Below, piece after piece: positions 13,341 to 64,000 of a DNA stretch of 64,000 nucleotides. The notes under the pieces were generated by a model. That model was not told the DNA's origin. It did not search any database and worked only from the letters and a program-made list of their open reading frames with translations. Location of the stretch: positions 64,001-128,000 of the forward strand of contig CAWJYV010000001.1 of assembly GCA_963847185.1 (NCBI GenBank), given 5' to 3'. The stretch's first letter is position 1, and each line of letters begins with the position of its first letter. This stretch comes from an uncultured Methanosarcinaceae archaeon. GTDB lineage: Archaea > Halobacteriota > Methanosarcinia > Methanosarcinales > Methanosarcinaceae. The translations under genes were made by a program, and so were the position numbers.

Positions 13341-13760
13341 CCGCGCCAGCCTTCCACATCTACCAGAAACCTCTCCGATGACTCAGATCTGGGAATCGGT
13401 AAACATAATCAGAAGGCTATAAAAGAAGTGCTGATATAGAGTATTTACTCTTTTTAATTGCTTTGTGGAATCTTCTGGGATATATTGGTCCCATCTGGCT
13501 ACAAGCGATAGCCCTGACCATTGTACGTGGTTTCTAGGCATATGTGCGTGGAAATGAGGGTAGACGTACCGCGCCAGCCTTCCACAATTATCCCAGAAGC
13601 TTAAATAGCACTTTATTGGCATTAAAATCCCTGTAATTACAGGGCTTCCCGGAAGCAGGGAGATATAAATGCCTAGGAAGGGGCTAAACGAGGTTTGTAC
13701 GTGGGTAGAATTACTCCCAGGTATATGCACGTAGAAGGCTCGGGATAGGCCTGTAAAAAA
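13341..13760. repeat. dispersed repeat core unit A1 followed by module B1
   Basis: CCGCGCCAGCCTTCCACA at 13341 and 13569; homologous to copies at 17.5, 21.5, 24.9, 25.1, 32.0, 32.2, 33.5, 35.9, 61.3 and 63.9 kb. Confidence 0.9.
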
Positions 13761-13974
13761 TTAAATTGTCGGACAGCCTGTAAAAGACAGGGTACTCGTG
13801 ACCACACGGACTCCCGAAGTAATAAATGATTGATCAAGTTCAAAACACATTTTCAAATACTAGATGCCGTTAAATTCCTCTGTTATCAAAAATTATGTAG
13901 AAAAAGTCTTTTAATATTTTTTAGTGATCCATAGGACTTAGTCCCATTTTATGTAATTTAGTTCAGTACTTAGT

Positions 13975-14215
13975 AAGTTACTACTCATTTAAGTCATTAC
14001 TTAGTTAAATTACTTTAATCAAGTTACTACTCATTTAAGTCATTACTCAGTTAAATTACTTTAATCAAGTTACTACTCATTTAAGTCATTACTCAGTTAA
14101 ATTACTTTAATCAAGTTACTACTCATTTAAGTCATTACTTAGTTAAATTACTTTAATCAAGTTACTACTCATTTAAGTCATTACTCAGTTAAATTATTTT
14201 AATCAAGTTACTACT
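13975..14215. repeat. tandem repeat, 46-bp unit x5 plus a partial copy
   Basis: AAGTTACTACTCATTTAAGTCATTACT(C/T)AGTTAAATTACTTTAATC at 13975, 14021, 14067, 14113, 14159; partial at 14205. Confidence 0.97.
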
Positions 14216-14498
14216 TAGTTGAGTTACATCCCTCCTTTGTACGTCTTCTTCATACATTGGGGACTGAACCTATGGATCAATTATATAACTGTGATAAAAG
14301 GTATAAGTAGATAACGATGGGAAAAGGTAAATTGCTTCTTTCACAAGAGAAAAATCGACTCTAAAATCAAAAAATTTCAGGTCGGTAATTTATAAGATGC
14401 ATATTAGGATTACAGCCCCAAAATGGATTAATCAACTTTTTCTGGGAGTACCCCATATGAACATTTAAAGTTGACTCCTAACTAATTCATATCCTTTT

Positions 14499-14735
14499 AT
14501 AGCACTTTTTGCATTAAATATCTACTTACGGGCTTCTTGGAAGCAGGGAGATATAGATTGCCTATGAAGTGCATACGATGACTATACGCCTTTAGCGTGG
14601 TTACTGGATATACGCACAAGAAGGCTCTGGATAGTGCAAAAATAGATATGCTTGTTAGCTTCGTATATAAACCAGCTTCAATAATAGTGGCTTGTCCAGT
14701 TTATACTGGCTGGACAGGTTCGAAGGTTATTCAAT
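14499..14735. repeat. repeat modules B and E downstream of kinase 1
   Basis: ATAGCACTT...GGAAGCAGGGAGATATA..GCCT shared with 13606-13680 and 25341-25420. Confidence 0.75.
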
Positions 14736-14741
14736 TAATTG

Positions 14742-17168
14742 TTATGGGGCTGACGCCGATGCCGGATTATTTTTTTCTGTTACTGTGAACCTTATAGTGA
14801 ATTCCGTCCCATGATTCCTTTTCAGTTCAAGTTCACCATCTAACTGGTCTACAAGGGAAGTTACCAGCTGAAGCCCAAGGCTATCAAGATCTTCAATATC
14901 AAGACTTTTAGATATACCTATTCCATCATCTGAAACTGTAAGAATGAAACTGGTACTCTTACAGCCTTCGCTTTTGTTTTCTTCGTTTTCTTTTCTATGG
15001 AGTTTGATTCGGATTTCTCCTTTATCTCTGCCTGAAAATGCATGTTTAAGAGAATTTGAAACGAGTTCGTTAATGATTATGCCTAATGGAACTGCAGTGT
15101 CCATGTCAAAGAAGATGTTTTCTTCCAGATCCATGTTTAATCTGACATTGGTATTTCCGAGCCTATATGTCTGGAAAAGATTTTCAGCGAGTTCCTCAAT
15201 GTACGGCGAAAAGTTAAGTGTGTCGAGTCCTTCACTTTTGTGCAGTTCCTCATGGATAAGAGCCATGGATATCACTCTGTCCTGGCTTTCCCTAAAAGCT
15301 TCCATAACTTCTGAATTTATTATGAATTCTCTGTTGCCGAACTTTTCCGCCTGAAGGTCAAGAAGGGACGAGATAACCTGTAAGTTATTCTTGATCCGAT
15401 GGTGGATTTCCTTTTTACGGGCAATCTCGAGATTTGCCAGGGCTTCCTCCGCCTTGATACGCTCAGTAACATCTCTTACAACACCTGAGATAGCCACAAG
15501 CTTTCCAGTGATGTCAAATACAGGAGAAAGAGTAATTGAAACATTTATTATAGTGCCATCCTTTCTTAACCGTAAAGTCTCATATTGGTGGACTTTTTCT
15601 CCTTGTATAACTATTTCAGTTAATTTTTTTGTTTCTTCACGTAGATAAGATGGAGCTAGGATGGATACGCTCTTTCCAATGACTTCCTGTGCTGAATAAT
15701 CATAAACCTGCTCTGCAGCCTTGTTCCAGCTTGTAATAATACCGTCAAGAGACACAGTTATAATAGCATCACTCGACGATTCAACAGCATTCGCCAGTGT
15801 CTGAATTTTCTCTTCTGCTTTCTTATGCTCAGTAATATCCTGAATTATTCCCTTTAGTCGAATAGGAATATTTTCATCATTAAAAATAGTTTCAGATTGT
15901 ATATGGACTATACGTTCTTCCCCATTAGCCAAGATAATCCGATGATCAATGCTGAAAGGTTTTCCATTTAGAGCTTTCTTATGGGCATTATCCGCATAGT
16001 CTCTATCATCGGGGTGTACAGAACTTAAATATTCATTGTAAGGTGGTGCAAATTCTTGAGGACTACGTCCAAAAATACGATATAATTCATCAGACCAGTA
16101 TGCTTTATCATTTGCAATATCCCACTCCCAATTTCCAATATGAGCCATTTTTTGAGCCTCAGCAAGACCTTGCTCACTTTCCTTCAATGAGTTGTAAGCT
16201 TTCTCAAGCTGGGTTGTTCGTCCTTTAACTTTTTCTTCTAAATTGTCATATGCTTTTTTAAGGGCTTCCTCAGCCTGCCTCTGCTCGGTGATATCTATTT
16301 GCACGCCGTTCCAGATTGTTCGACCATCGGGCATCTGGCGCGGACGGGAGTGCAATCGCATCCAGCGTATCTGGCCGTTGGGCAGCTGCATAGGTAATTC
16401 CATATCAAGATCCGACAACTCGCGGGCGCTCTGAGCCTCGGCTTCGACAAGTCGTTCAAAATATGTCTGCGGAACTTGCCTGTACAGCGTGTCGGGATCA
16501 CGTAGTACGTCCTGAACACTGACACCGTTGAGTCGCTCGATGCCTGTGCTGATGTACAGGAACCGGACACTGCCGTCGGGCTCATAGACATACTGATAGA
16601 GTGCACTGTCCGGTAGGTTGTCGCCCAAAAGGCGCAGCCGTTCCTCACTATCTCGTAGAGCTTCTTCCGCCTGCTTGTACTTTGTCGTTTCACGCGATGA
16701 GAAGACTAAGCCAGTTACATTTCCAGAGCTATCCTTGACTGGAGTAAGGCTCCAGTCCCAATAGGTGACTCCTCTCTCAGGCTGATCAGCGAAGAAAAAA
16801 GGTTTGTCCTTGTAGAACACCCCTTCTCCAGTATCCCTGACTTTCCGGAAAATTGCTTCGTTCTCAGCATGAGGATATAAAGAGAAATGATTCTTGCCTG
16901 CCATTTCTTCAGGCTTCATCCTGCATGTTTCAGCGTAGGCAAGATTTACCCATAAAAAGTTGAACTGAGGATCAAGATAGGCAAACATAACGTCAGTAGT
17001 TTTCATGACGTTTTCAAGCAAGCTCCGCTCGCGGATAAGTGTCTCATCAGCACGTTTACATTCCAGATTCTCGGCACGCAAGTCTCGATTAGCCTTTTCC
17101 AATCCACCGATCCTTTTTCGCAACTGGATCTCTATTTCATCCTTATCCGAAGAGTTAAATAAAGTCAT
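14742..17168 (-). CDS. multi-PAS sensor histidine kinase (HisKA_2/HATPase)
   Basis: EIHHRIKNNLQ H-box, NELVSNSLKHAF, DDGIG, LGLQLV; four PAS; start ATG17168 by alignment with paralogs. Confidence 0.95.
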   Translation of the reverse strand: MTLFNSSDKDEIEIQLRKRIGGLEKANRDLRAENLECKRADETLIRERSLLENVMKTTDVMFAYLDPQFNFLWVNLAYAETCRMKPEEMAGKNHFSLYPHAENEAIFRKVRDTGEGVFYKDKPFFFADQPERGVTYWDWSLTPVKDSSGNVTGLVFSSRETTKYKQAEEALRDSEERLRLLGDNLPDSALYQYVYEPDGSVRFLYISTGIERLNGVSVQDVLRDPDTLYRQVPQTYFERLVEAEAQSARELSDLDMELPMQLPNGQIRWMRLHSRPRQMPDGRTIWNGVQIDITEQRQAEEALKKAYDNLEEKVKGRTTQLEKAYNSLKESEQGLAEAQKMAHIGNWEWDIANDKAYWSDELYRIFGRSPQEFAPPYNEYLSSVHPDDRDYADNAHKKALNGKPFSIDHRIILANGEERIVHIQSETIFNDENIPIRLKGIIQDITEHKKAEEKIQTLANAVESSSDAIITVSLDGIITSWNKAAEQVYDYSAQEVIGKSVSILAPSYLREETKKLTEIVIQGEKVHQYETLRLRKDGTIINVSITLSPVFDITGKLVAISGVVRDVTERIKAEEALANLEIARKKEIHHRIKNNLQVISSLLDLQAEKFGNREFIINSEVMEAFRESQDRVISMALIHEELHKSEGLDTLNFSPYIEELAENLFQTYRLGNTNVRLNMDLEENIFFDMDTAVPLGIIINELVSNSLKHAFSGRDKGEIRIKLHRKENEENKSEGCKSTSFILTVSDDGIGISKSLDIEDLDSLGLQLVTSLVDQLDGELELKRNHGTEFTIRFTVTEKNNPASASAP

Positions 17169-17474
17169 AATTCCCCAACGCTGTTTTAAAACAGGCACTA
17201 ATACTTTGTTAGACCCTCTTTTATTAGATACTATTAGTCTAATAGAATTTGACCTTAATATAATACTAAGCAGATCCCTAACAATGTCTTACTACAAATT
17301 AATTCTTCATTCAATATTCATAAAATTGTTCTATAATAAGATAGTACATACTAAGAAGCCATCTGGAAACTATTTCGAACTCTCCCTGAGCCTCTACACT
17401 CAATTAAAATAGCTACCATACTTCTTTTATCCTGAAAACTAGTACAGGCTTCGCAGATAAACCGACTGCACTAC

Positions 17475-17700
17475 CCTTCCAAATATCCCAGAAACCTCTC
17501 CGATAACTCAGATCTGAGTTATCGAGGAAACATAGTCGGAAGGCTATACAAAAGTGCTGATATAGAGTAATTATTTTACTCGTTTTTAATTACATTGTAG
17601 AGCTGTCCGGGATATATTTGTGGTCCATCTAGCTACGAGCGATAGCCCTGGCCTTTGTACGTGGCTTCTAGGTATATGTGCGTGGTTAGGTATGTGCGTA
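17475..17700. repeat. repeat core unit A2
   Basis: perfect palindrome CGATAACTCAGATCTGAGTTATCG 17501-17524 plus conserved flanks. Confidence 0.9.
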
Positions 17701-18165: not shown

Positions 18166-20889
18166 TTAATTCCCTTTTTCTTCTGCGCTGAAGCTTATAA
18201 TAAACTCAGTACCTTTATCTTTTTTTAGCTCTATTTCGCCGTCTAATTGATCTACCAAAATGTTTACAAGCTGCAGACCAAGGGTATCTGAGTCTTCTAA
18301 ATCGATGTTTTCGGGGATGCCAACTCCATTATCTGAAACAATTAAAGTATATTTTTTACCTTTTTCGAAAACTTTCCCTTTGATATCCAGCTCATTTCTA
18401 GCATCTTTGCTAAAGAGTTTAATTTGAATTTCTCCGGTTTCTCTGTTTGGAAATGCATATTTTAAGGAGTTAGAGACTAGCTCATTAACAATTATCCCTA
18501 ACGGGACTGCAGTATCCATATCAAAGAGGACATTCTCCTCAAGGTCCAGATTTAGGCTGATGTCAGTATTTCCAAATTTGTATGTCTGAAATAGACTCTC
18601 AACGAGTCTCTGCAGGTATAGAGAAAAATTCAGGGTGTCGTTTGTTCCTTCCTCTTCATGTAATTCCTCGTGAATCAAGGCAATTGATGTTACTCTGTCC
18701 TGGCTTTCCCTGAAGGCTTCCAGAACTTCTGAATTCATTATGAATTCTCTGTTGCCGAACTTTTCAGCCTGAAGATCTAAGAGAGAAGAAATAACCTGAA
18801 GGTTGTTTTTAATTCTGTGGTGGATTTCCTTTTTGCGAATTATTTCAATGCGCGCCAGATTTTCTTCCGCCTTTTTATGCTCGGTAATATCTTGAACTAT
18901 TCCTCTCATTCGAATAGGCTTATTCTTTTCATCAAAGATGACTCCACCTTGAGAATAGATTACACGCTCTTTTCCATCAGGTAAGATTATTCTATAATCA
19001 ATGCTATACGGCTTTCCTTTTAATGCTTCGTTAATGGCATGACTCACGTAATCTATATCTTCGGGATGTATATAACTTAAAAATATGTTGTGGTTTAACT
19101 CAATTTTGGGATCAAGCTCAAAAATACGATAAACTTCATCAGACCAGTATTCCTCATTAGTTATAATGTTCCAGTCATAACTTCCAATATGAGCCATTTT
19201 TTGAGCTTCAGAAAGACTTTTTTCGCTTTCCTTCAAAGAGTTGTAAGCTTTTTCAAGCTCTGATGTTCGCTCTTCAACTAGTTTTTCTAAATTATCATGT
19301 GCTTTTTTTAGAGCTTTTTCTGCCTTTTCAATTTCTGTAATATCACGGGCTGCAGCAAAGATCCCAAGAACCTTTCCAGACTCATCCTTATAAATTGAGG
19401 CATTATACAAAACAGGAGTTATATGTCCATCTTTATTCTGAATTTCAAGGGGATAGTCCCTTACCAATCCTTCCTGAAATGCGCGCTGGTAACCTTCTTT
19501 AGCTTTCTCAGGCTCAGTAAAATAGTCTGAAAAATCGGTACCTATGAGTTTGTCTCGAGAATAACCTGTCACTGTTTCGGTGGAGTTATTGACATCGGTT
19601 ATTTTTCCATCTGGTCCGATAGTCACAAGCGGGTCCAAACTGGCTTCAATCAAACTGCGATTATATATATTTGATAGCTTCACAGCTTCCTCTGCTTTCT
19701 TACGTTCTGTAATATCTATGAATGCAGAGACCGATCCTCGTAGATTTCCCTGCTCGTCATGTAAGGGTCTGGCATTGCCCAATACATGTCGTATATTGCC
19801 GTCAGCAGATACAATGTCTAGCTCGCAGTCATTTACCTCTCTACCTGCAGCTGCTATCTGCGACGGCATTTTTTCAGGCTTGATCTCCCTCCCGTCCTTG
19901 AATAACTTAAAAAACTCTGGTTTCTCTCCTTCAGGAGTTGACTTGGAAAAGTTTGTATCCACAGGAACACGTAGCCATTCATAGGAGATACGGTTACCAT
20001 TTATCTTAAGTGCCTGGGGATCGTGCGCTATAAACACAGCAACAGGCACAGCATCTAATACTGCTCCCAACTCCTCCGACCGAGCTCTCTCACGCCTTTC
20101 ACTATCCTGCAGTGTTTCTAAAAGGGCATTGCGGTCCACCAGTGACTGGGAAAGCTTGATATTGCTGTGGCTTAGCTGTGAGATCATATTTGCAAGTTTC
20201 ATGAAAAAAGACATGCTTGTTTCAACAGTTTCTCTGCTCAACCTTGGAACTTTTTCGAGCGCTGCTATGTATTCCTCTTCATTAAAGCCGTATTTTTTCG
20301 CCTGGGATCGGAAGAATTCATAGTCCAGAAACTCGTCGTCAAAAAAGAACTGTCCTGAGAAGATATTGCCGACATGTTGACTACCAGAGAAAACTGGAGT
20401 TACTACATCCCACATATTGTTCTTGCACTTGTATAACTTAAACTCTCCCAGAGGAACTCCTGCGGACAGCTTTGTATCGCTTTCTATGCAGTGCTTGCAG
20501 GTTCCGGGATGAAACCTATGGAACTTGGTGCAGATATCCTGCCATCCAACACCTATCAGAACATTGCCTTTGAGATCAAGTAAGGCCATGGTAATGTGAG
20601 CAAATTTATAAAAGTCATCCATGATGGACTGAACTGCCTGAACATCAATAATCTCTGCTAGCTCAAAGTTTTCTGCATTCATAGAATGTGAGAGGTGAGT
20701 TTCTAACTTCATCCCGAAAGATTGCTCATTCTGGCCCGATGCATCCTCAGCCCTTTTGCGTTTGGTGATATTCTGGTTCATTGCCATATTCTCGGCACGT
20801 AACTCTTTATTGGCTTTTTCCAGTTCAGCGATCCGTTTTTTCATTTGGATCTCCAGTTCATCCCTGCTCGGAAGGTTAGATGCAGTCAT
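18166..20889 (-). CDS. PocR + PAS sensor histidine kinase (HisKA_2)
   Basis: PocR GWQDICTKFHR..CKHC..YKCKNNMWD; PAS repeats; H-box. Confidence 0.95.
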   Translation of the reverse strand: MTASNLPSRDELEIQMKKRIAELEKANKELRAENMAMNQNITKRKRAEDASGQNEQSFGMKLETHLSHSMNAENFELAEIIDVQAVQSIMDDFYKFAHITMALLDLKGNVLIGVGWQDICTKFHRFHPGTCKHCIESDTKLSAGVPLGEFKLYKCKNNMWDVVTPVFSGSQHVGNIFSGQFFFDDEFLDYEFFRSQAKKYGFNEEEYIAALEKVPRLSRETVETSMSFFMKLANMISQLSHSNIKLSQSLVDRNALLETLQDSERRERARSEELGAVLDAVPVAVFIAHDPQALKINGNRISYEWLRVPVDTNFSKSTPEGEKPEFFKLFKDGREIKPEKMPSQIAAAGREVNDCELDIVSADGNIRHVLGNARPLHDEQGNLRGSVSAFIDITERKKAEEAVKLSNIYNRSLIEASLDPLVTIGPDGKITDVNNSTETVTGYSRDKLIGTDFSDYFTEPEKAKEGYQRAFQEGLVRDYPLEIQNKDGHITPVLYNASIYKDESGKVLGIFAAARDITEIEKAEKALKKAHDNLEKLVEERTSELEKAYNSLKESEKSLSEAQKMAHIGSYDWNIITNEEYWSDEVYRIFELDPKIELNHNIFLSYIHPEDIDYVSHAINEALKGKPYSIDYRIILPDGKERVIYSQGGVIFDEKNKPIRMRGIVQDITEHKKAEENLARIEIIRKKEIHHRIKNNLQVISSLLDLQAEKFGNREFIMNSEVLEAFRESQDRVTSIALIHEELHEEEGTNDTLNFSLYLQRLVESLFQTYKFGNTDISLNLDLEENVLFDMDTAVPLGIIVNELVSNSLKYAFPNRETGEIQIKLFSKDARNELDIKGKVFEKGKKYTLIVSDNGVGIPENIDLEDSDTLGLQLVNILVDQLDGEIELKKDKGTEFIISFSAEEKGN

Positions 20890-21392
20890 AATTCCCCAAT
20901 CCTACTTTTGAAAAGTAGGGCATTAATAATTATATTAAATCTCGTTTGTCTGAGCCTTTTTTCTAAAGGATTAGCGTAAATACGATCCTAGATAAATCAT
21001 AATTCCTAGCAATTATTACTTCTCCATCCAATCTTATTTATAAAATTACAATATATTTATTTTTAAACTTTTAGTATGAAAGTTATTTGAGAGAAGTTGT
21101 ATTTTATCTATCACAGATAAAAAGATCTAAAAAATTCAGAAAAGATCTAAAAAATTCAGATAGAAACTTATTTTTTGGCAAAAGAGGTGTTGAAAATTCC
21201 ACGTAGGAATCTCAATCATTAGGTATTTCTACAACTAAGCTAGCAAAATACCTTAATTATGTTTAAAAGACAATTTTTGCTTCTTAGATTGCGCAAGCCT
21301 CTTCACCCTCACCCCAACATCTAAAAATAATTCAAAAATCCAACAGATTAGTTAATCAATTATTTTAAGTAGTATCCTCTTTCAATCCATCT

Positions 21393-21690
21393 TTTTTCAG
21401 TCAAACACTCGAATCAGGTTAGTGCATAAGAGCTGCATCTTTAACATAACCTTTGAAACGTATAGGTTACTACAGAGATACCCTTCCATAATTATCCCAG
21501 AAACCTCTCCGTTAACTCAGATCTGAGTTATCGGTAAACATAGTCAGAAGGCTTTAAAGAAATGCTGACATAGAGTATTCATTTTACTCGTTTTAATTAC
21601 GTGGAGTCTTCAGGTATTGAATCCATTTGGCTGCGAGTGATAGCCTTGGACATTGTACGTGGTTTTTAGGGATGTATGCATTGTTAGATG
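21393..21690. repeat. repeat module C followed by core unit A3
   Basis: TTTTTTCAGTCAAACACTCGAATCAGGTTAGTGCATAA (also 40533, 63661); palindrome 21509-21534. Confidence 0.88.
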
Positions 21691-21730
21691 TGAAAAGTTA
21701 CAAAGAAGCTATGCTTGATTCTTAGCCTAG

Positions 21731-21830
21731 TGCTTCGATTCCAAAATAAATTCCTTATTTAATAGGAAATTCGTGATTAATGGGTAGATTCAAAAGTCAG
21801 GTTTTATGAACATACTTCGGAATCGCAGTA
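21731..21830. mobile_element. 100-bp MITE-like insertion with CTAG target duplication
   Basis: CTAG at 21727-21730 and 21831-21834; ends match 14/18 as inverted repeats; absent from the homologous module at ~36000. Confidence 0.7.
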
Positions 21831-24475: not shown

Positions 24476-24889
24476 AATTCCCCAACCCTGCTTAAAAGTA
24501 GGGCATTAGTACTTCCCATTAAATTTCCTTATCTTATCCTGTTGTCTAATTGAATTGAAGTAAACATGATTCTAGGCAAATCCACAATGCAAGCAATTGA
24601 TAAATATTTATCTAATAATTTTTATGAAAATTGATCGTATATACTTTTTAAGAATTGAAATGAAGAAGTTATTTGGGAGAAGTAATACTCTATCTATTAC
24701 ATATAAAAAGTTCTAAAAAACTTAGATAGAAACTTTTTATTCATGCAAAAAAGCATTAAAGACTTCTTGTTTGAATTTTAATCATCGACTTTACTATAGC
24801 TTAATTTTATCAAATATTCGAGTATTGTGCATAAAAAAGGGAATATAAAAGGCAATTTTTGCTTATTTTGCAGTCACTTTTACATTCAA

Positions 24890-25530
24890 CCCTTCCAAAT
24901 ATCCCAGAAATCTCTCCGATGTGCCAGATCTGACACATCGGGGAAACATAGTTGTATAGCTATAAAAGAAGTGCTGATATAGAGTATTTACTTTCGTTAA
25001 TTGCTTTGCGGAGCTGTCCGGGATATATTTGGTCCATCCATATCAAGAGCGATAGCCCTAGCCTTTGTACGTGGCTTCTAGGTATATGTCTTCAGAATAG
25101 ATGCAACGCAGCATATCCCTAAAATCTCTCCGTTAACTCAGATCTGAGTTATCGGTAAACAGTATCATTTGGCTTTAAAATAAGTGCTGATATAGATTAT
25201 TTTCTCATTTTAATTGCGTTGCGAAGTTTCAGGGATGTATTTGTTAAGCTCAATCCTGAGCGATATCCCTGGCCTTTGTACGTGGCTTCTAGTCTGAGAT
25301 AGGCGGACCGCCCAGCCTTCCACATATCCCAGAAGCTTGCATAGCACTTTATTGAAATTAAAAATCTACGTACATGGCTTCCCCCGAAAAGCAGGGAGAT
25401 ATAAATGCCTTGGAAGGGGCTAAACGCTTGGATCGAGGCTTAGCGTGGCTTCCAGTAATAAGCATGTAGAAGACTCGAGATAGACTTGTCAAAAATAGCT
25501 ATATTTGTTAGCTTAGTATATGCGTCAGTA
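24890..25530. repeat. tandem repeat units A4-A5-B3
   Basis: palindromes at 24916-24941 and 25130-25155; B module from 25308. Confidence 0.88.
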
Positions 25531-31838: not shown

Positions 31839-32355
31839 TAGGCAAACTCCTCATTTATCCTAAAAAAGCGTAAACGTTCAAAACTAATTAAGGTATATAA
31901 CCTATGAGTAACGAAGAGGTTATTATATCCCTGCGACAGAAGAAGAGAATCTTAACATCGATGTTCTATATCTGGAACTTCGATGAAAACATAGTCGGAG
32001 GGTTATGGAATAAGTGCTGGCACAGTGATTAAAGTATTCATTTTAATATGTTGTGGAGCCGTCCGGGATATATTTGGTCCATCTGGCTACAAGCGACATC
32101 TCTGGCCATTGTACGTGGCTTCTAAGAATATGTGCGTGGAGGATTCGGGATAGATGTACTGCACTATCTTCCACAATTATCCCAGAAACCTCTCCGATAA
32201 CTCAGATCTGAGTCATCGGGGAAAAGTAGTCGGAAGGCTATAAAAGAAGTGCTGGTATAGAGTATTTACTCTTTTTAATTGAGTTGTAGAACTTTCCGGG
32301 AATATATTTGGTCCATTTGGCTACGAGCGACAGCCTTGGCCTTTGTACGTGGATT
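31839..32355. repeat. repeat module D followed by tandem core units A6-A7
   Basis: TAGGCAAA..CTCATTTATCC.TAAAAAAGCG (also 61110); palindromes 31956-31985 and 32194-32219. Confidence 0.85.
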
Positions 32356-32502
32356 CTCAGCCAAAGTACGGACCACGATTATCATATAAAAATAAACATT
32401 TTAAAAAGATTTATAAAGTATTATTAACTTTAAAGAGTAATTATAAAAGCATTGTTTAAGCTGACAACTTGTCTATAAAACTAGAAATATCAAGGGGTTA
32501 TC

Positions 32503-33417: not shown

Positions 33418-33440
33418 ATCTACTTCTAAGCTGATTTAAA

Positions 33441-33605
33441 TTATTCATTTTACTCGTTCTAATTGCTTTGTGGAATTTTCAGGGATATATTTGGTCCATC
33501 TGACTATAAGCGATAACCTTGGACATTGTACGTGGCTTTTAAGTATGTGTGCGTAGGAACGAGGGATAGATGTACCGCGCCAGCTTTCTATATATTCCAG
33601 AAGTC
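33441..33605. repeat. repeat unit A8 (3' half plus junction into the start of a next unit)
   Basis: TTGTGGAA..GGGATATATTTGGTCCAT...TTGTACGTGG...GATAGATGTACCGCGCCAGC. Confidence 0.85.
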
Positions 33606-35867: not shown

Positions 35868-36087
35868 TTAATGTGGAGCCTTCGGGTATATTTGGTCCAT
35901 TTGGCTATAAGCGATAGCCCTGGACATTGTACGTGGCTTCTAGGCATACGTGCGTGGGTAGGGGGTTGAAAATTACAAAAAGAAGCTATGCTTGTTTTCG
36001 CCTTAGCCTCGTATACGCTCTGGCTTCGATAATAAGTGGCTTCTAGCCACATTATGCTGACTGAACGACTTACAAGCATTATTAAAC
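35868..36087. repeat. repeat unit A9 (3' half) plus module E
   Basis: GGTCCATTTGGCTATAAGCGATAGCCCTGGACATTGTACGTGGCTTCTAGG. Confidence 0.85.
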
Positions 36088-40532: not shown

Positions 40533-40622
40533 TTTTTTCAGTCAAACACTCGAATCAGGTTAGTGCATAAAAGCCTGATCTTTAGCATAACCTTTGAAGC
40601 ATACAAGGTTATTACAGATAGT
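40533..40622. repeat. repeat module C
   Basis: near-identical to 21393-21478 and 63661-63750. Confidence 0.85.
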
Positions 40623-51860: not shown

Positions 51861-52575
51861 TGCTATGGGAGCGCGGAGGGTCACGAATGCCCAGACTTTT
51901 AAGTCTGGGATGAAGTGAACCCTCGCAGGTTTTTCGACATTCACCTTAAAAATCTAAAATCGTCACTTTTTTCAATATAAAGTTTTTTGACACCATAGCC
52001 ACAGGCGGTTGCAGCCACCTATGGCTAGGATGTGATAAGCATTGGAATTGCGTAGTTTTAGCCACGGCTATGGTCAGATCACCTACCACCTCGTATTGGC
52101 GCCTAAGTACAGATTCAAAATATTCTATAACAATAGAGTTAAAAAGGATTGCGAATCGATCTTCAAAAACATTTGTACTGAGAAAGGCTATAGAATACAT
52201 GCCATGGAAATAGTAGAAGACCATGTGCACTTGTTTCTGGAATTCCATCCCAGCACCTCACTATCCAAGGTAATTCAACACCTAAAAGGAGGAAGTTCTT
52301 ACAGATTATTTAAGCTTCATCCTGAACTAAGGGAAAAATACTGGGGTGGAAGTCTATGTCAAGTGGCAAGTTCTATAGATCAATTGGGAATGTAACTGCT
52401 GACACAATCAAGCATTATATTAACTATTCACAAGGAAAACCAAAAAAAGAGATTATAACGAATAGAATAAAGAAATCTGGACAATTGAAACTAAGCGATT
52501 TCTAACTTCCTCAAAAATCGGCGGACGGCCCGAAGCATACCCTACCTTTTAAGGTAGGGTGGCCGTCTGCAATTT
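51861..52575 (+). mobile_element. tnpA: IS200/IS605 family element, tnpA only, frameshifted near 52358
   Basis: YHLVLAPKYR, DHVHL HUH motif; subterminal hairpins 51890-51909 and 52539-52560; abuts the IS6 transposase. Confidence 0.9.
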
Positions 52576-55459: not shown

Positions 55460-57645
55460 ATGGGAAAAAGAGGAGCAAAGCCAAAGTTCACTGACGTTTC
55501 TTGTCCTAATCCGGATTGTAAACTTTATGGTGTTACTGGAAAAGAAAACATCATAGGCAATGGTACCTATCAAATCAAGAATAAGCGAGTTCGAAAATAT
55601 ATCTGCCGCAAATGCGGCAGAGTATTCAATGATCGAACAGGTACTTTTTTTGAGAATGTTCGCAAAGACGAATCTGACATTAAACTAGCCCTTAAAATGG
55701 CTATTAAAGGAATGTCAATACAAGCTATTTCTTATGTATTGGAAGTTCAACCTGCCACAGTAAGTAACTGGTTGTTTCGCGCAGCGAAACAATGTGAGAA
55801 GGTAAATGAAGACTTGATGAAGGATCTTAATATTTCCAAAGTTGAGATGGATGAACTATGGGTAATAATTGAAAAAAAGTTGCTCCAAGAACAGAAGTTG
55901 AAGATGATGGAGCATGGATGTGGGTGAGCTTTGCACCTGAGTCCAGATTAATAATTGATTTTGTACTGGGACCAAGAAAACAGTATGTGGCAGACGAATT
56001 TGTAAATATTACAGATAAACATCTTTCAACTTTAAAACCTCTTTTTGTTACAGATGGATTCTATGCTGAAGCTCTTTTGAAAAAATATGGTGATTTGGTA
56101 GAGTTTTCTAAAAATGGGAAGAGAGGAAGACCCAGAAAACTAGCAATAGTACCTAATGAAAATCTGAAATATGCTCAGGTTATCAAAAACAAACTGGGAA
56201 AGAAGCTTCAGAAAATTGAAAAAAGAGTAATCTTTGGTCAAAATATAGATCAAAGTGAAATTTCAACAAGTTTGCTTGAAAGACAAAATCTAACATTTAG
56301 ACAGGATAACAATAGAGTTTCAAGGAAGACAATAGGGTTTTCAAAGAAAATTGAGGGATTGTACAACCAAATGAGACTTTATTGCACTCATTTTAACTTT
56401 TGTAGAGACCATAGAGGATTAAAAAAGAAAAAGAAAATGGAGTTTTGGGAAAGAAAACACCAGCAGAAAAATATGGGATTACTAAAAATATAGTTCCTGA
56501 CTCAACAAATTACACTTTTTATTTGTGGATTGAATGTTTCCATCCATTTCTTTGCAAATGATAATGAGTTTTTCACTTTCATAAATTCATTTTTGATAAT
56601 CTTTTTTAAATGTTCTTTTGATTGAATAAATCTAACAGATACTTCTCTCTTAATCGTTTTCCATACAAATTCTACAGGATTTAGATCTGGTGAATAAGGA
56701 GGAAGAAACACAAGTGTTATATTTAATTCTCTTGCTTTCCTTACCGTTTTATCAGCATGATGTGACCTCGAATTATCCAGAACAAGAATTATTCTTTTCC
56801 CTAAATTCTGTTCCACAATTTTCTCAAGGAATTCACATACATTTTCTGCTTTTGAACTTTCCATAAAATCGATGAGATTTCTACCATTAATCGAATAGAA
56901 TGCAAACGCATTTGCTTTTATATAATCTGTATTTTTTGTTATCAAAGGCTTTTTAAATGACCATAATCGTTGCGTATTTGCTTTTGTTTGTGGTGAGGAT
57001 TCATCCAAAAAACCTATAAGATATTGATCATCTGGACCAATATATGCTGGAATTGCTTCTATTAACTTTTTTTAAAATTTCCTCAGCATTTTTAGGTCTT
57101 CTGTAGTCAAGAGTATATGGTTTTGAATGATACATGTTAAAACTATGCAGTATAACTCCTACTTGTTTCTGTGAATACTCTACCCCATATTTTTCCTTTA
57201 TTAACTCCAAAGCTTCTCTTGTAGTCCAATGATCTTTTTTTTCCAGCAAGATTCTTAACTCTTTTATTTGATCATCGGTAAGCTTGGATTTTCTCCCCCC
57301 ACCAAAATTTGGTATTAAGGCGGCATAGCCGCCTTTATTCCAGGCATCTTGCCAGTAATATCCTGTTTTCTTAGTAACTCCAACTTTAGTAGCGGCTTCT
57401 TCTACTGAATCCCCTAAAAATCTAAATTTTACAAAATAGAGCCTTTTAAGCACTCTTGAATTGGTTTCATGTTTGATTAAAACGTTGATTTCATCAAGAA
57501 CTAATTTTTGATCAATTGGAATGCGTTCTTTCCCCACCATATAAGTAGATAGGTGTTAATACGTGTAATAAGTTACGTTGAAGATTATAAATGGACATTA
57601 ACAGATTTGTTAAATTATAGGAATAGAAAAATATCAACTAATTAA
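55460..57645 (+). mobile_element. IS1 family transposase (two ORFs), C-terminus interrupted by IS630
   Basis: CPNPDC..CRKC Zn finger, EMDELW, LERQNLTFRQ; frame resumes as KWTLTDLL at 57590. Confidence 0.85.
56491..57587 (-). mobile_element. IS630 family element (two ORFs, slippery A-run) inserted at TA
   Basis: LDNSRSH, LPPYSPDLNPVE; TA at 56489-56490 and 57588-57589; removal restores the IS1 frame. Confidence 0.92.
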
Positions 57646-58080: not shown

Positions 58081-58486
58081 CTTAGCCAAGCTTTTCTTCA
58101 AATCTGGATTAATTTTTATTCACTCATACACAAAAGTTCGTCACCGATCATGTACGTGTTGACTGGATAGTTTATACTACATTTATTTTTTATACTGTTC
58201 TTATGGAAGGGATGGAAGGGATTTGAATTAAACTTAACATATAAGGTAAGAAAAAAATATTTTTTAATTTTTTTGTATTATACGTATAATTATTGCTTCA
58301 AATCTCTTCCATTACCCCCATAAATTTCGGGACAAGTGAAACAATAAGCCAATAACATCTTTTGCGCTACTCCGGATACAAGTACTTCACCATTATCCCG
58401 AAAACCTGTTACTGATCATGTATGTAACGTGCAGATGGCTTATTGTAGCTTTATAACATTCCAGTGTGAATTTTCGAATAATTTTG

Positions 58487-59528: not shown

Positions 59529-60308
59529 ATCTCTACTTAGAGATTCAATTCATTTATAACTATCATTGTTCGTGAAATGCCCTTAACAGCCTTCGCTAAT
59601 TATTTTGTATATTCCTTGGATATAATTTATTCACTCATACACAAAAGCTTGTTACCGATCATGTACGTATTGTAAGGATATCTTACAACTATCCTACCTT
59701 TATACAGGATAAGCAAAGATGGATATCAAATTTTTAAAAACCTTTTTTCTCTTTTTTTGTCCCAATTAACGGTAAATAGACACATAAGGAATGAAATAAA
59801 TATAATTTATAATAGGACGAAAAATAGTTTCAGGCAAAAAAGTGTGTACGGGCTTGACACTAAACCATCAACAATAAAAATAATTGACGAAAGTCGTGGT
59901 CAACTTATTGTTGAAAAGTATAGTAAGGTGGTTTAAATGGTCAAGCAAATTTCAAAAGAAGAAGTACTAAAAGAAATTTATGAATAAATGGTTAAACTCG
60001 AATCGAAAATTGCAAAATGGAATCCTAAGACTGACAGTTTGCAATTGATTGGAGAATGGATGGAGAGGGAAGAGGAATTAATTTGCTATCAATTCGAAGA
60101 AGTTGAAGCTATTAGTAGGTGTAAAGGGATGGAACCTATATCCCGATCTCTTTTTTTGCGTATGCTAGGCTTTTGTGTCTCTTTTATTGATCTTTATCTA
60201 TAGAAAAAATCCGTAATCAAAGTTGCCTATCAAAGGGCTATTTTTGAGCCTTGACTCCACTAATTATTTTGAAAATGCTTTTATTGATAGGTTTTGTATA
60301 CATAGCTC

Positions 60309-61109: not shown

Positions 61110-61490
61110 GTAGGCAAATTCTTCATTTATCCCTAAAAAAGCGAAAGGTCAAAACTAATTAAGGCATATACCATCTGAGTAACGAAGAGGATATACCCTA
61201 CCGCAGCATGAGAAAACCTTTCACGCCTGGTGTTCAAATTCCCATTCTTATCCCAGGCAGTAGCCTTGCACTTTAATTATTAAGTATGTACTTTTAGGAT
61301 AGACTTACCGCGCCAGCCTTCCATATTATCCCAGAGGCCTGATCCGTACGCACTCGTTTTAATCGATTTGTGGAACCTTCCGGGATATATTTTGGTCCAT
61401 TTAGCTACGGGCGATAGCCTTGGCCATTGTACATGGATTAGGTATATTTTAGGTATGTGGAGTATATGTCTTCAAGGATAGACATGCAAA
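61110..61490. repeat. module D plus core unit A10 (central palindrome missing)
   Basis: CCGCGCCAGCCTTCCATATTATCCCAGA at 61308, then TGTGGAA.CTTCCGGGATAT..GGTCCAT..GCGATAGCC. Confidence 0.82.
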
Positions 61491-61790: not shown

Positions 61791-62008
61791 ATGGATGACC
61801 GAATATTATCAAAAAATTCCAGTGTAGCATAGATTTCAGCCGTTCCCGATGATGGGGAAGAAATCACGATTTTCCATGAAAAACTTGGGTATCCTTATGA
61901 AAACTTTCCATATTTCATACATGTGTCAATGGCTCATGAGGGTTTGAAGCGGCTATATTTTTCTGAAAGAATAAAATAAAATTAAAATTGAAGTGACACA
62001 ATTATTCA

Positions 62009-62398
62009 TTAATCAAAATATTTTTCGAAACTTTCACACATATTAAGCACGTCGCTCATGCATTCATCAGATAGTTTTTTATACCTTTCCACATCGGCTG
62101 TATGTATAGGTTCACCTGCCAATGTTTTCATCTTAGCGACTATAGATAAAAGATCATCAGTTACCCGTTTAGGCAATATATCACGAACCTCAACAGCGAC
62201 CTCTATAAAAATTCTAGCATGCCTTCTGAACATTTCCTCAAAAACACTGTACCCATCATACTCACCACGAGTCTTCCAATCGAAGTAAAATTTCAAAAGA
62301 GCTTTTTTTACCACAGATTTCGCAATTCTAAACTGCTCTTCTTTGTCATTTCGAGCATCTAGCAACCGATCAATCTCAGAATATACAATACCCCACAT
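62009..62398 (-). CDS. hypothetical protein
   Basis: clean ORF with protein-like composition. Confidence 0.7.
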   Translation of the reverse strand: MWGIVYSEIDRLLDARNDKEEQFRIAKSVVKKALLKFYFDWKTRGEYDGYSVFEEMFRRHARIFIEVAVEVRDILPKRVTDDLLSIVAKMKTLAGEPIHTADVERYKKLSDECMSDVLNMCESFEKYFD

Positions 62399-62789
62399 AA
62401 CAATGGCTATAGCACTAATTCATTAAATACTTGCATGATGCGTTAAATACTTTTAATTAAGTAGATGATTTGTAACAGATGGTGTAACCAATGTCTTTTT
62501 ATTTATTCAGCAGATAATTAGAACTATCGAAGCTATACACTTTGACTTTCATAAAGGCTTCAAAAATTTTACATCCTTGAACTTTTCTGCTTGAGATTAA
62601 GAAGAAATGAATAACCTGAAGGTTTTTTACTTGGTGATGGTAAAATCTAGAAGCTAAACAAGAACATTACAACCAAATGGGCTTATATTCAAACCTTGAT
62701 TTTTGATCTAGAGGATAGCAGGATAAACATTAAGCTGCTTCCAGAGAATAAAGGAAATAAAAAGCAACAATGAAAATTTGTAATGTTCG

Positions 62790-63146
62790 TTATTCATCAG
62801 ATTTTTCAAAAAGAGCAGGATACTTCTTTTTTAATGGCGTATATAGCTCTTCGTCTAATTTTGTATCATGAAGTGTTTTCACTTTTGAAAGCTGGTCAAG
62901 TGATAAATGATGAGCTCCTTTAAGATCAGCCCTTTCAAGATTAGCCCCTTCAAGATTAGTCTCTTCAAGATTAGTCTCTTCAAGATTAGTCTCTTCAAGA
63001 TTAGCTCCTTGAAAATTAGCCTCTATAAGGTATGCCCCTTCAAGGTTAGCTTCTATAAGGTCAGCTCCCTGAAGGTTAGCTCCTTGAAGTTCTTTTCTCT
63101 CTGGAATAGCCATATACAATTGTTGTCTTTGAACTAAAAAAAGCAT
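62790..63146 (-). CDS. pentapeptide-repeat protein (short or fragment)
   Basis: ANLEG/TNLEE repeats, encoded by a 15-bp tandem repeat. Confidence 0.8.
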   Translation of the reverse strand: MLFLVQRQQLYMAIPERKELQGANLQGADLIEANLEGAYLIEANFQGANLEETNLEETNLEETNLEGANLERADLKGAHHLSLDQLSKVKTLHDTKLDEELYTPLKKKYPALFEKSDE

Positions 63147-63490
63147 TACTCTACTAGGAAGATATCTTCTGCTGTTAAGGATTTATTTTTAAAAATTGCA
63201 TATATATTCTGGATCTATAAAGCCTGCAGAAAAGGACAGCAACTTTTATCCCTATAGATTGCTGTTTCTCCAGTTTTAGGCTTATTTCCTATAATTGGTA
63301 CCACTTTTGAAGAAAAACTCTTCTGACCTAGGAGAATAGCAGGTTAAAAATCAAGCTGTTATTCTCATGGATCAAATAATTAATATAGACAGCTTGCTTT
63401 TTGGTCCTTCATTTAGCTTTTATATCTGGGCATCCTCGTGTGCATCTGGCTCTTTGACCGTCAAGGCTTTCTTGTCTCTTTCACACCTTA

Positions 63491-64000
63491 CCCAGGGCCT
63501 CTGTACTCAATTAAAAACAGCTACCTTACCTCTTCTTCCGAAAATAGCGCAGGCAGCTCGACAACGCCATCTACACACCATCCTCACACCTAAAAATCCA
63601 TAAAAAAGCCAACCAACAACATTATCAACTAATTATTTAAGTAACCACTTTCAATCCATCTTTTTTCAGTCAAACAATCGAATCAGGTTAGTGCATAAAA
63701 GCCGGATCTTTAACATAACCTTTGAAGCATACAAGGTTATTACAGATAGTATTTCAAAGCCTTTTAAAAAATTATTTCATAAAAGATAATCAAAGCTGCG
63801 CTGATGCATCCTGCTGCAAGCAATGGAGTATATTCGCGCCATCCTTTCACATATCCCAAAAGCCCTGGTTCATAAGTGCTCGTTTTAATTGCTTTGTTGA
63901 GCCGTTAGGATATATTGGTCCATTTGGCTATGAGCTATAGCCCTAGACATTGTACGTAGTTTCGAGGTACGTGTGGGTGTTTAGGTATGTAGCTACAAAA
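63491..64000. repeat. modules F and C plus core unit A11 (runs off the window end)
   Basis: module C at 63661; GGATATATTGGTCCATTTGGCTATGAGCTATAGCCCTAGACATTGTACGT. Confidence 0.82.

What the first reader, a model, noticed from the sequence alone, without database searches (positions are those of the whole stretch)
13341..64000. Co-oriented ~230-bp structured intergenic repeat family (about 11 copies) with covarying stems
Seen: a core unit (CCGCGCCAGCCTTCCACAATTATCCCAGAAACCTCT-palindrome-AAACATAGTCGGAAGGCT...TGTGGA..TTC(C/T)GGGATAT..GGTCCAT.TGGCTAC.AGCGATAGCC.TGG.C.TTGTACGTGG.TTCTAGG) at ~13341, 17475, 21481, 24890, 25114, 31945, 32168, 33441, 35868, 61308 and 63835, always in the same orientation. 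The central stem shows compensatory changes: CCGAT-AACT-CAGATCTG-AGTT-ATCG (17500), CCGAT-GTGC-CAGATCTG-ACAC-ATCGG (24916), CATCGAT-GTTC..GAAC-TTCGATG (31956). Further pairings are AGCCTTCC/GGAAGGCT, ATATCCCAGA/TC(C/T)GGGATAT (crossing the first, so pseudoknot-like; the common variant is G-U on the minus strand) and a GTCCA..GGCTA/TAGCC..TGG(A/C)C hairpin. Indels between copies argue against protein coding, and I saw no TIR or target duplication. Inference: an uncharacterised structured ncRNA or non-autonomous mobile/recombination element that separates accessory gene blocks.
Basis: partly seen in the sequence, partly recalled or inferred. Interest (0 to 1): 0.85.

Follow-up and report, generated by a model that had tools for sequence, protein, structure and literature searches.

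The report
Mosaic intergenic repeat family in Methanosarcina
A non-coding, modular repeat sits between genes in a group of Methanosarcina genomes, always pointing the same way within a region; only one of its proposed stems behaves like a real hairpin, so it looks like a DNA-level repeat at which gene blocks get reshuffled, not like one large folded RNA.

Summary
The repeat family is real. nhmmer finds 11 copies of its ~100-nt core in the window, all on the + strand, and 55 more in 22 loci from about 8 other Methanosarcina/Methanosarcinales genomes. Seven window copies are full ~210-230-nt units and four are partial. The element is a mosaic of modules (A, B, C, D-E, F, G) that recombine. Only the central palindrome (B) shows compensatory change (0 of 500 shuffles). 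The other three proposed pairings, including the pseudoknot, are no better than shuffles, and RNAalifold predicts only B on either strand. The best-conserved part is an unstructured, strand-specific core with GT[AG]CGT[AG]G motifs spaced 21 nt apart. Copies lie in every kind of intergenic context. There are no terminal inverted repeats at the boundaries, no target duplications, no Rfam match and no associated transposase. Homology between related genomes breaks at the elements. My reading is a BIME/BOX-like mosaic intergenic repeat that acts as a recombination junction for gene blocks. Its biochemical function is unknown.

The parts
13341..13565 (+). Full unit: module A (head, ends at the 10-mer joint), B (palindrome, degenerate here), C, and D-E (core)
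   Evidence: nhmmer 13344-13565, profile positions 2-225, 222 bits; sequence read
13566..13760 (+). Second A head (TATCCCAGAA at 13589-13598) joined to an F module. F has its own palindrome, a diverged core copy (TTGTACGTGG at 13695) and a second ACGT-type motif.
   Evidence: homologous to 25307-25496 and to L003, L005, L007, L021 and L002
14499..14660 (+). F-like module followed by a G-like terminal module, just downstream of the 3' end of kinase gene 14742-17198(-)
   Evidence: matches 13605-13744 and L007 2844-3061
17469..17700 (+). Full unit A-B-C-D-E, with a perfect 24-nt palindrome at 17501-17524 and three GT[AG]CGT[AG]G motifs at 17657, 17678 and 17694
   Evidence: single-sequence folds
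21477..21735 (+). Full unit A-B-C-D-E followed by terminal module G
24887..25530 (+). Head-to-tail array: unit (24887-25099, palindrome arms changed on both sides), unit (25102-25311), then A+F (25312-25530)
31929..32383 (+). Head-to-tail array of two units (31929-32154 with a longer variant palindrome; 32162-32383), immediately upstream of an MreA-family gene
33430..33605 (+). Partial unit: 3' part of C, then D-E, then an A head, lying between convergent genes
35869..35998 (+). Core-only copy (D-E) followed by terminal module G, 90-125 nt from the stop of kinase gene 36088-37851(-)
61308..61447 (+). Short form: A head joined through a ~20-nt linker to D, with no palindrome and a diverged core end
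63834..63990 (+). Short form A-linker-D-E near the window end

Best explanation
This is a clade-restricted, non-coding, modular intergenic repeat family that works at the DNA level.

ANATOMY. The constant part is a ~100-nt core (D-E). Its last ~50 nt are conserved in sequence but not in structure. That stretch carries two or three same-strand GT[AG]CGT[AG]G motifs spaced 21 nt apart, about two helical turns. I read it as a binding platform for a sequence-specific DNA-binding protein (inferred). Optional modules are attached in several combinations: an A head ending in TATCCCAGAA; a 24-30-bp palindrome B whose arms covary; C; F; and a terminal G that looks like a hairpin plus a T/A run.

SPREAD. 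New copies arise by local duplication, seen as head-to-tail arrays and as co-duplication with sensor-kinase paralogues. They are also reshuffled by recombination between copies.

CONSEQUENCES. Recombination between direct repeats, or between a chromosomal copy and an excised circle carrying one copy, keeps orientation. Copies within a region therefore stay co-oriented. Each neighbouring gene family keeps a fixed orientation relative to the repeat. Gene blocks bounded by repeats turn up in new contexts.

SHOWN: the family, its modularity, local co-orientation, the single covarying hairpin, the breaks of homology at the elements, and the lack of coding, TIR/TSD and Rfam identity.

INFERRED: protein binding at the core, homologous recombination as the shuffling mechanism, and any regulatory or terminator role.
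For: FAMILY AND RANGE. There are 66 core copies: 11 in the window and 55 in 22 loci from about 8 genomes.

CO-ORIENTATION. All copies share one strand in each of 23 sources. Thirteen sources hold more than one copy, and summed (n-1) over them is 43.

INDEPENDENCE FROM GENES. Co-oriented coding sequence is 56.6 kb against 53.9 kb anti-oriented. The 53 arrays fall in all four intergenic contexts: 12 convergent, 9 tandem-co, 9 divergent, 6 tandem-anti and 17 at contig ends.

MODULARITY. Of the 66 cores, A lies upstream of 28 and B of 16; A lies downstream of 22 and G of 13. The A-end 10-mer is followed by four or five alternative modules.

CORE CONSERVED IN SEQUENCE, NOT STRUCTURE. See the nearly invariant columns. 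RNAalifold predicts 0 pairs on 50 copies. The hairpin test gives 76.9% paired against 76.7% in shuffles.

MOTIF. GT[AG]CGT[AG]G occurs 84 times on the element strand and once on the other strand in 207 kb. Of 25 neighbouring motif pairs, 21 are 21 nt apart.

HAIRPIN B. 87.2% of cells are paired against 77.5% in shuffles (0/500). There are 22 double-change cells against 7.5 (0/500), and 5 of 11 pairs change on both sides.

RECOMBINATION JUNCTIONS. In L011 vs L018, a ~95% identical flank ends inside the element and the upstream modules differ. In L002 vs L017, a 94-97% identical block (the DUF488 ORF plus ~95 nt upstream) ends at the repeat edges, while the repeats themselves are 40-75% identical. 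The MreA block and the F/tandem-repeat block are adjacent in L005/L007 but 18 kb apart in the window.

FIXED GENE-REPEAT ORIENTATION. Kinases are anti-oriented in 7 of 7 cases. MreA genes are co-oriented in 4 of 4 and DUF488 genes in 3 of 3.

AGE. Within-genome identity is 73.6% and between-genome identity 73.0%. The copy upstream of MreA is 85.6% identical between the window and L005, and its flank is 87.2% identical.
Against: No binding protein has been identified, and there is no expression or biochemical data. Protein binding at the core rests only on conservation and the 21-nt spacing.

Homologous recombination alone does not explain why a 50-nt core stays above 90% conserved at most positions across species. 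Some function must be selected, and I cannot name it.

The covarying palindrome suggests a single-stranded stage (RNA or ssDNA), which a purely double-stranded DNA model does not need.

The recurrent joint next to TATCCCAGAA could point to a site-specific enzyme and not to general recombination.

Sampling is biased. All loci were fetched with one exact pattern of the core, so copy numbers, clustering and taxonomic range are lower bounds. The L002/L017 comparison may be between paralogous places.
Confidence: 0.45

Rival explanations
1. Non-autonomous mobile element moved in trans through a single-stranded DNA stage, in the style of HUH/Y1 systems (REP-RAYT, or IS200/IS605-derived palindrome elements). 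The hairpin is the recognition structure, insertion is strand-specific with respect to replication, and neither inverted terminal repeats nor target duplications are made.
For: A covarying hairpin whose palindromy runs through the apex and shows no strand preference: 6 G-T against 9 A-C mismatches. No boundary TIR and no TSD in 19 of 19 units. Strict local co-orientation that does not follow gene direction. In some copies homology starts exactly at the 10-mer next to the hairpin (L004, L011).
Against: Only 16 of 66 cores have the hairpin module, so it cannot be what moves the core. None of the 148 neighbouring ORFs scanned matched a Y1 transposase or TnpB family. The left boundaries are ragged. 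Orthologous copies are retained between species with ordinary divergence, and there is no sign of a recent burst within a genome. A replichore test was not possible: the five loci of one chromosome amount to three independent regions, which would fit any partition.
Confidence: 0.15
2. A multi-copy small-RNA gene or cis-acting RNA leader/trailer. The unit, or its B-C part, is transcribed; the hairpin and the conserved single-stranded core act in RNA (sRNA seed, stabiliser or processing site).
For: The hairpin covaries, and RNAalifold scores it better on the minus strand, where the common variant gives G-U pairs (-10.76 against -4.11 kcal/mol). Single-copy folds are more stable than shuffles: z = -3.5 on + and -5.1 on -. 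By eye there are TATA-like AT-rich boxes, and a short hairpin followed by a T run at the C/D joint. That reading is mine; it was not tested by any tool.
Against: No consensus structure beyond the hairpin appears on either strand. Three of the four proposed helices show no covariation. There is no Rfam match even at permissive thresholds. Mismatches in the hairpin give no clear strand call. Copies are truncated and recombined at many points, which is unusual for a functional RNA gene. I held no transcript data.
Confidence: 0.15
3. Recombination sites of a dedicated cassette system, analogous to an integron. Co-oriented sites bound single-gene cassettes that an unknown site-specific recombinase excises and inserts at the TATCCCAGAA joint.
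For: Co-oriented sites separate many single-gene intervals. Each gene family keeps a fixed orientation relative to the site. The same DUF488 and MreA cassettes appear in different contexts. A recurrent joint is followed by alternative modules. Copies cluster on one chromosome at 832-888 kb and 1024-1032 kb.
Against: The joint is not precise. Left edges fall at 0, about 8-12 or about 30 nt from the 10-mer, and in L002 the break lies inside it. Sequence is conserved and structure is not, the opposite of attC sites as I recall them. The dyad A-C pairing is unsupported. Only one generic tyrosine recombinase was found, in L017, among 148 ORFs. The main text of the archaeal integron paper PMC9668308 does not mention Methanosarcina (passages only, supplements not seen).
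Confidence: 0.1
4. Passive non-coding flanks carried along by segmental duplication of neighbouring genes, chiefly the PAS/HisKA_2 sensor kinases, with no function of their own.
For: Four kinase paralogues in the window share gene and flank homology (repeat families D1-D7 and D14). The G module and core lie next to the 3' ends of three of them. Kinases in L015 and L021 show the same arrangement.
Against: Between the kinase 5' homology and the repeat lie 140-335 nt that are not homologous among the paralogues. Most copies lie next to unrelated genes (catalase, subtilase, MscS channels, GNAT, DUF488, MreA, PKD protein, pentapeptide protein) in about 8 other genomes. Head-to-tail arrays contain no gene. 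The core is far better conserved than neutral flanks would be.
Confidence: 0.07
5. Polar protein-binding sites tied to chromosome replication or segregation, for example a fork-barrier or orienting array. Strand-specific 21-nt-spaced motifs point one way on one side of a switch point and the other way on the other side.
For: Extreme strand specificity of the motif, 84 to 1. Orientation does not follow gene direction. On chromosome OW818660.1 copies are + at 832-888 kb and - at 1024-1032 kb and 2184-2192 kb.
Against: Three independent regions on a circle fit any two-arm partition, so one search is no test. GC skew in the window follows gene direction and marks no switch. Copy number varies from 1 to at least 10 exact-pattern matches per genome, which is odd for a core chromosomal function. 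No such system is known in archaea (recalled).
Confidence: 0.05

Closest known systems
REP/BIME mosaic elements of enterobacteria (recalled; no tool comparison possible)
   Same: Extragenic and non-coding. A palindromic unit is combined with other short conserved motifs in several mosaic arrangements. Copies often lie just past gene 3' ends or between convergent genes, with tens to hundreds per genome. These elements are thought to bind proteins and to promote rearrangements.
   Different: No sequence relationship is known. Here the palindrome is optional (16 of 66 cores) and the constant part is an unstructured core. Copies are co-oriented within a region rather than alternating. No RAYT-type gene was seen among 148 neighbouring ORFs. 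The host is an archaeon.
BOX elements of Streptococcus pneumoniae (modular A-B-C intergenic repeats; recalled)
   Same: Built of modules with a variable number and choice of internal modules. Intergenic, non-coding, with no transposase of their own.
   Different: BOX elements are described as folding into stable structures along their whole length. Here only one hairpin has support. There is no sequence similarity.
attC sites / Vibrio cholerae repeats of chromosomal integrons, and archaeal clusters of attC sites (PMC9668308, passages read; the remainder recalled)
   Same: Co-oriented ~100-200-nt sites between single-gene cassettes, clustered in one chromosomal region, with cassettes found in different contexts.
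   Different: Sequence is conserved and fold is not. The dyad symmetry across the site is not supported. The joint is ragged. No integron integrase was seen. Genes occur in both orientations relative to the site.
MITEs and palindrome-associated elements derived from IS200/IS605-type insertion sequences in haloarchaea (recalled)
   Same: Short, non-autonomous archaeal intergenic repeats with a palindrome. The IS200/IS605-derived kind also lacks TIRs and target duplications.
   Different: A 13-16-nt inverted repeat exists inside the unit, but conserved sequence continues beyond it and 19 of 19 units lack target duplications. The IS ends in the window are unrelated. No TnpA or TnpB gene was found nearby.

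Membership tests
Any Rfam RNA family | Match to a family covariance model at its gathering score | tested here: not met
   0 matches in the whole window. 0 matches on repeat copies in 5 loci holding 28 cores; the only hit there is an unrelated CRISPR repeat. At E up to 10 only scattered noise at 13-18 bits.
   Met for the central palindrome only (0/500 shuffles for percentage paired, double-change cells and covariation score). Not met for AGCCTTCC/GGAAGGCT or ATATCCCAGA/TCCGGGATAT (229/500) or for the GTCCA..GGCTA hairpin (168/500). RNAalifold predicts only the palindrome.
MITE | Terminal inverted repeats at the element boundaries | tested here: not met
   A 13-16-nt inverted pair exists, but conserved sequence continues to the left of it in all 19 units examined.
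MITE | Target-site duplication flanking each copy | tested here: not met
   0 of 19 units show a duplication.
MITE | Ends shared with an autonomous insertion sequence | tested here: inconclusive
   The inverted repeats of the IS copies in the window are unrelated. nhmmer finds no repeat match inside IS regions. Whole genomes and ISfinder could not be searched.
REP/BIME with RAYT | Palindromic unit in mosaic combination with other conserved motifs | tested here: met
   Palindrome B combined with modules A, C, D-E, F and G in several arrangements.
REP/BIME with RAYT | Cognate Y1/HUH transposase gene flanked by the repeats | tested here: inconclusive
   None among 148 ORFs of the window and 22 loci.
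IS200/IS605-derived palindrome element | Similar subterminal hairpins at both ends, and a TnpA/TnpB relative | tested here: not met
   Only one supported hairpin, present in 16 of 66 cores. The second candidate hairpin shows no covariation. No TnpA/TnpB family hit.
IS200/IS605-derived palindrome element | Orientation tied to the direction of replication | not testable with these tools
   Only five 8-kb pieces of one complete chromosome were available, with no origin map.
Integron attC array | Co-oriented sites separating gene cassettes | tested here: met
   All copies co-oriented in 23 of 23 sources, with many single-gene intervals between copies.
Integron attC array | Site defined by an imperfect dyad fold with conserved end boxes, the fold being conserved more than the sequence | tested here: not met
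   Outer A-C pairing 63% paired and no better than shuffles. Sequence is highly conserved. No attC model was on hand, so the end boxes were not tested.
Integron attC array | Integron-type tyrosine recombinase next to the array | tested here: inconclusive
   One Phage_integrase-family ORF (L017 865-2130) among 148 ORFs and none in the window. Arrays without an integrase are known.
CRISPR array | Short repeats at regular ~60-75-nt spacing with unique spacers | tested here: not met
   Start-to-start spacings are 211-28023 nt, with genes in between.
Flanks of segmental gene duplications | Homology continuous from the repeat into one paralogous gene family | tested here: not met
   Holds in part for the 3' flanks of three kinase paralogues. 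The 5' side is interrupted by 140-335 non-homologous nt. Most copies adjoin unrelated genes.

The most novel reading that the evidence does not exclude
The repeats are the recombination sites of an undescribed archaeal gene-cassette platform. Co-oriented ~100-230-nt sites carry a protein-bound core with 21-nt-spaced motifs, a joint at TATCCCAGAA and an optional covarying hairpin. At these sites a dedicated, still unknown recombinase or single-strand transposase excises and inserts single-gene cassettes such as MreA regulators, DUF488 genes and sensor kinases. This would be a functional analogue of integrons that has arisen independently in Methanosarcina.
Probability: 0.1. Interest if true: 0.85.

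Novelty: new variant of a known kind. Interest (0 to 1): 0.5.

Why it matters
Interspersed mosaic repeats are well studied in bacteria, where they shape transcript stability, nucleoid protein binding and genome rearrangement. Very little comparable is described for methanogens. Methanosarcina genomes are unusually large, with long intergenic regions and many paralogous sensor and regulator genes.

A conserved, oriented repeat at the borders of such genes would give a concrete handle on how these accessory regions are built and reshuffled. The 50-nt core with 21-nt-spaced motifs is a ready-made bait for finding the protein that recognises it.

On the practical side, the family explains contig breaks and mis-assemblies in Methanosarcina MAGs, since several of the loci are short contigs that end in a copy. 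It should also be masked before intergenic regions are searched for sRNAs or promoters.

Tried and rejected
1. Protein coding. One frame through the core is open in the consensus, but 1-3-nt indels among copies break it and the variable positions are not synonymous. This is by eye on the alignment. The only ORF overlapping a copy (13383-13730, minus) has no Pfam match.

2. Promoter or 5' leader of the minus-strand genes. Rejected as a general role, because copies lie in all four intergenic contexts, including 12 convergent ones.

3. MITE bounded by the D/A inverted 10-mer. No target duplication, and the left boundary is not at the inverted repeat.

4. A second inverted pair between the short linker and the A head. 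Seen by eye only, mostly due to a self-complementary ACGT-type motif, and not found by the repeat finder.

5. tRNA-derived element or att site. No tRNA or tmRNA in the window.

6. Plasmid or virus origin. No blastn match in the plasmid or phage collections.

7. Helices C-D and the short hairpin at the C/D joint. The per-copy letters show no compensation.

8. GC skew as a replication marker. It follows gene direction only.

9. Association with the MreA-family regulator as the binding partner. The gene is flanked by copies in 4 of 4 cases, but so are unrelated genes. Left as a lead only.

10. An F-module census with a loose pattern gave mostly false hits. Only about 9-10 true F copies, all co-oriented with the core, are usable.

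11. Literature. Searches (listings only) returned no paper describing such a repeat in Methanosarcina. Subscription journals, ISfinder, Repbase and Dfam were not searchable.

Full report

Yes. The 10-nt 3' core TTGTACGTGG (at most one mismatch) occurs 12 times in the window, all on the + strand and never on the minus strand. An 18-nt motif of the family was found 5 times against 0.03 expected from shuffles. The repeat finder reports the family independently (families D8, D10, D11 and D16).

A profile built from seven window copies finds 11 copies of the core module, starting at 13452, 17584, 21592, 24996, 25208, 32041, 32273, 33460, 35872, 61358 and 63884, all on +. Seven are full units of about 210-230 nt. 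Copies 61308 and 63835 join the head directly to the core. Copies 33430 and 35869 are core-only. A further diverged relative (module F) follows the arrays at 13566-13760 and 25312-25530 and stands alone at 14499-14660.

2. DISTRIBUTION

One exact-pattern scan of 185,579 species genomes returned 22 stretches from about 8 genomes, all Methanosarcina or Methanosarcinales: sp. Ant1, sp. Z-7115, MSAR-AD2, chromosome OW818660.1 and several MAGs.

The loci hold many more copies than the exact matches: 55 cores in about 143 kb. No locus is the window itself. The closest is 84-93% identical in unique stretches.

The scan used one strict pattern, so absence from other Methanosarcina species is not shown. 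There is no match in the plasmid and phage collections and none in Rfam at gathering or permissive thresholds. Three literature searches (listings only) gave no description of such a repeat in Methanosarcina.

3. ANATOMY

The element is a mosaic.
- Module A is a head that ends in TATCCCAGAA (for example 13589-13598).
- B is a 24-30-bp palindrome (for example 17501-17524).
- C is an A-rich stretch ending in a short hairpin and a T run.
- D-E is the ~100-nt core.
- G is a terminal module seen mostly next to gene 3' ends.
- F is an alternative body that also starts after A.

Of the 66 cores, 28 have A upstream, 34 do not and 4 are at contig ends. Sixteen have B. Downstream, 22 have another A and 13 have G. 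The A-end 10-mer occurs 55 times on the element strand. It is followed by four or five alternative continuations, while its left side is ragged. Head-to-tail arrays of two or more units are common.

4. STRUCTURE TESTS

On 50 core copies RNAalifold predicts no pair at all.

On 20 longer copies the central palindrome does show compensation. It is 87.2% paired against 77.5% (0/500). There are 22 cells changed on both sides against 7.5 (0/500). Five of 11 pairs change on both sides, and slid controls are at 26-40%.

The two other pairings, including the crossing one that would make a pseudoknot, are 72.7% paired against 72.5% (229/500). RNAalifold on both strands predicts the palindrome only: -4.11 kcal/mol on + and -10.76 on -, the latter helped by G-U pairs.

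Mismatches in the stem are 6 G-T and 9 A-C on the + strand, which gives no clear strand call. The palindromy runs through the apex. A loop does not need that, so it hints at symmetry on the DNA level.

The shuffle control ignores relatedness, so the support rests on perhaps three or four independent arm variants. Single-copy folds are more stable than shuffles (z = -3.5 and -5.1), largely because of the palindrome.

5. THE CORE

The best-conserved stretch of the family is about 50 nt at the end of D and in E (nearly invariant columns). It is conserved as sequence, not as fold.

It carries GT[AG]CGT[AG]G motifs: 84 on the element strand and one on the other strand in 207 kb. Of 25 neighbouring pairs, 21 are exactly 21 nt apart (window positions). 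Some copies have three motifs, or a 21-nt internal duplication.

I infer that this is a binding platform for a sequence-specific DNA-binding protein. No tool result shows binding.

6. CONTEXT

Pfam scans of 148 ORFs (26 + 89 + 33) show ordinary and diverse neighbours: PAS/HisKA_2 sensor kinases, a PKD-domain protein, catalase, a subtilase, MscS channels, GNAT enzymes, DUF488 and pentapeptide proteins. IS transposases of several families lie nearby but not adjacent. One tyrosine recombinase was found (L017). No Y1 transposase or TnpB was found.

The small gene flanked by copies at 32503-32901, with its paralogue at 35320-35754, belongs to the MreA family of regulators (NCBIfam, 147 and 140 bits, cut-off 100).

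The 53 arrays lie in all intergenic contexts: 12 convergent, 9 + 6 tandem, 9 divergent and the rest at contig ends. Coding sequence is co-oriented and anti-oriented in equal measure (56.6 kb against 53.9 kb). This excludes a general role as promoter or leader of a neighbouring gene.

All copies in each of the 23 sources point the same way. Each gene family keeps its own orientation relative to the repeat: kinases anti in 7 of 7 cases, MreA co in 4 of 4 and DUF488 co in 3 of 3.

7. EVIDENCE FOR RESHUFFLING

L011 and L018 share a ~95% identical flank that stops inside the element. The upstream modules and flanks are unrelated.

L002 and L017 share a 94-97% identical block made of the DUF488 ORF and ~95 nt upstream. 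It ends at the repeat edges, and the repeats on either side are only 40-75% identical and of different subtypes. These two places may be paralogous.

The MreA block and the F/46-bp-tandem-repeat block are adjacent in L005/L007 but 18 kb apart and in the other order in the window.

Copies from different genomes interleave in a tree. Mean identity is the same within and between genomes (73.6% against 73.0%), so the family is old and is not homogenised within a genome. The copy upstream of MreA has diverged about as much as its flank (85.6% against 87.2%).

Part of the window's copies did travel with duplications of the kinase genes: shared 3' flanks run up to module G. On the 5' side, however, 140-335 non-homologous nt separate gene homology from the repeat.

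8. MOBILE-ELEMENT TESTS

Conserved sequence continues to the left of it, and none of 19 units has a target duplication. IS ends in the window are unrelated. There is no tRNA in the window.

9. VERDICT

The interpretation as one ~230-nt structured RNA with several covarying stems and a pseudoknot is not supported.

What is there is a previously uncatalogued mosaic intergenic repeat. As far as my searches reach, it has no match. It resembles bacterial BIME or BOX elements in kind (recalled comparison) and shares with integron arrays the co-oriented, cassette-bounding layout. It fails the testable defining features of MITEs, attC sites, IS200/IS605 derivatives, CRISPR and Rfam families.

The most likely account (0.45) is a protein-bound DNA repeat that spreads by duplication and serves as a substrate for recombination between copies. 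That would explain the co-orientation, the arrays, the mosaicism and the moving gene blocks.

The rivals are ssDNA-type transposition, an RNA gene, a dedicated cassette recombinase, passive flanks and a replication-linked polar site. They remain open at the levels stated above and can be separated by the census, transcript and pull-down experiments listed under next steps.

Noticed in passing
window 13975-14215: A 46-bp tandem repeat, 5.2 copies, 97% matches, in a ~1-kb gene-free stretch between the repeat array and kinase gene 14742-17198. The same tandem repeat and its flanks are conserved in L005 7276-8000 / L007 1-282 at 85-95% identity.
   Followed up: partly
window 36088-39900 (-) and 21903-24475 (-): Sensor-kinase genes that look broken. 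Three consecutive ORFs (PocR+PAS, 428 aa; PAS, 180 aa; PAS-HisKA_2-HATPase, 587 aa) together mirror the 907-aa kinase at 18166-20889. The 776-aa kinase at 22145-24475 lacks its HATPase domain, which sits in a separate 81-aa ORF at 21903-22148.
   Followed up: no
window 32503-32901, 35320-35754, 33785-34066, 34268-34687: A cluster of small DNA-binding protein genes among the repeats: two MreA-family regulator paralogues (84% identical DNA; family D19), an Sso10a-family chromatin protein and a DUF1699 protein.
   Followed up: partly
window 43131-44784; 51465-52248; 55460-57540: A patch rich in insertion sequences: a DDE_5 transposase gene with 23-nt inverted ends (87% complementary), an IS240-type fragment, an IS1-like pair of ORFs and an IS630-type (HTH + DDE_3) element. 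Next to them is a truncated Y-family DNA polymerase ORF at 54505-55197.
   Followed up: no
window 46385-50004 (-): A 778-aa ORF that fuses a NifH-like ATPase domain to a nitrogenase-component-1-like domain, followed by a 429-aa component-1-like ORF. The fusion is unusual and was not examined.
   Followed up: no
window 58100-58165 and 59610-59675: A separate ~60-nt direct repeat pair sharing a long stretch that ends in TGTACGT. It does not belong to the family studied here.
   Followed up: no
window 21309-21484, 40450-40625, 63578-63753: Another repeated intergenic module (family D17). It abuts the repeat at 21477, lies ~80 nt from the one at 63834, and at 40625 continues into unrelated sequence. 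Further shared modules follow the core in the loci ('H'). The intergenic DNA of this clade seems to be built from many such blocks.
   Followed up: partly
L005 1577-1613 (-): A single match to the Rfam CRISPR-DR7 repeat model above its gathering score (48.8 bits against 37), with no array called around it.
   Followed up: no
window 62790-63146 (-): A pentapeptide-repeat protein gene whose 15-nt period shows up as a DNA tandem repeat. This is ordinary.
   Followed up: no
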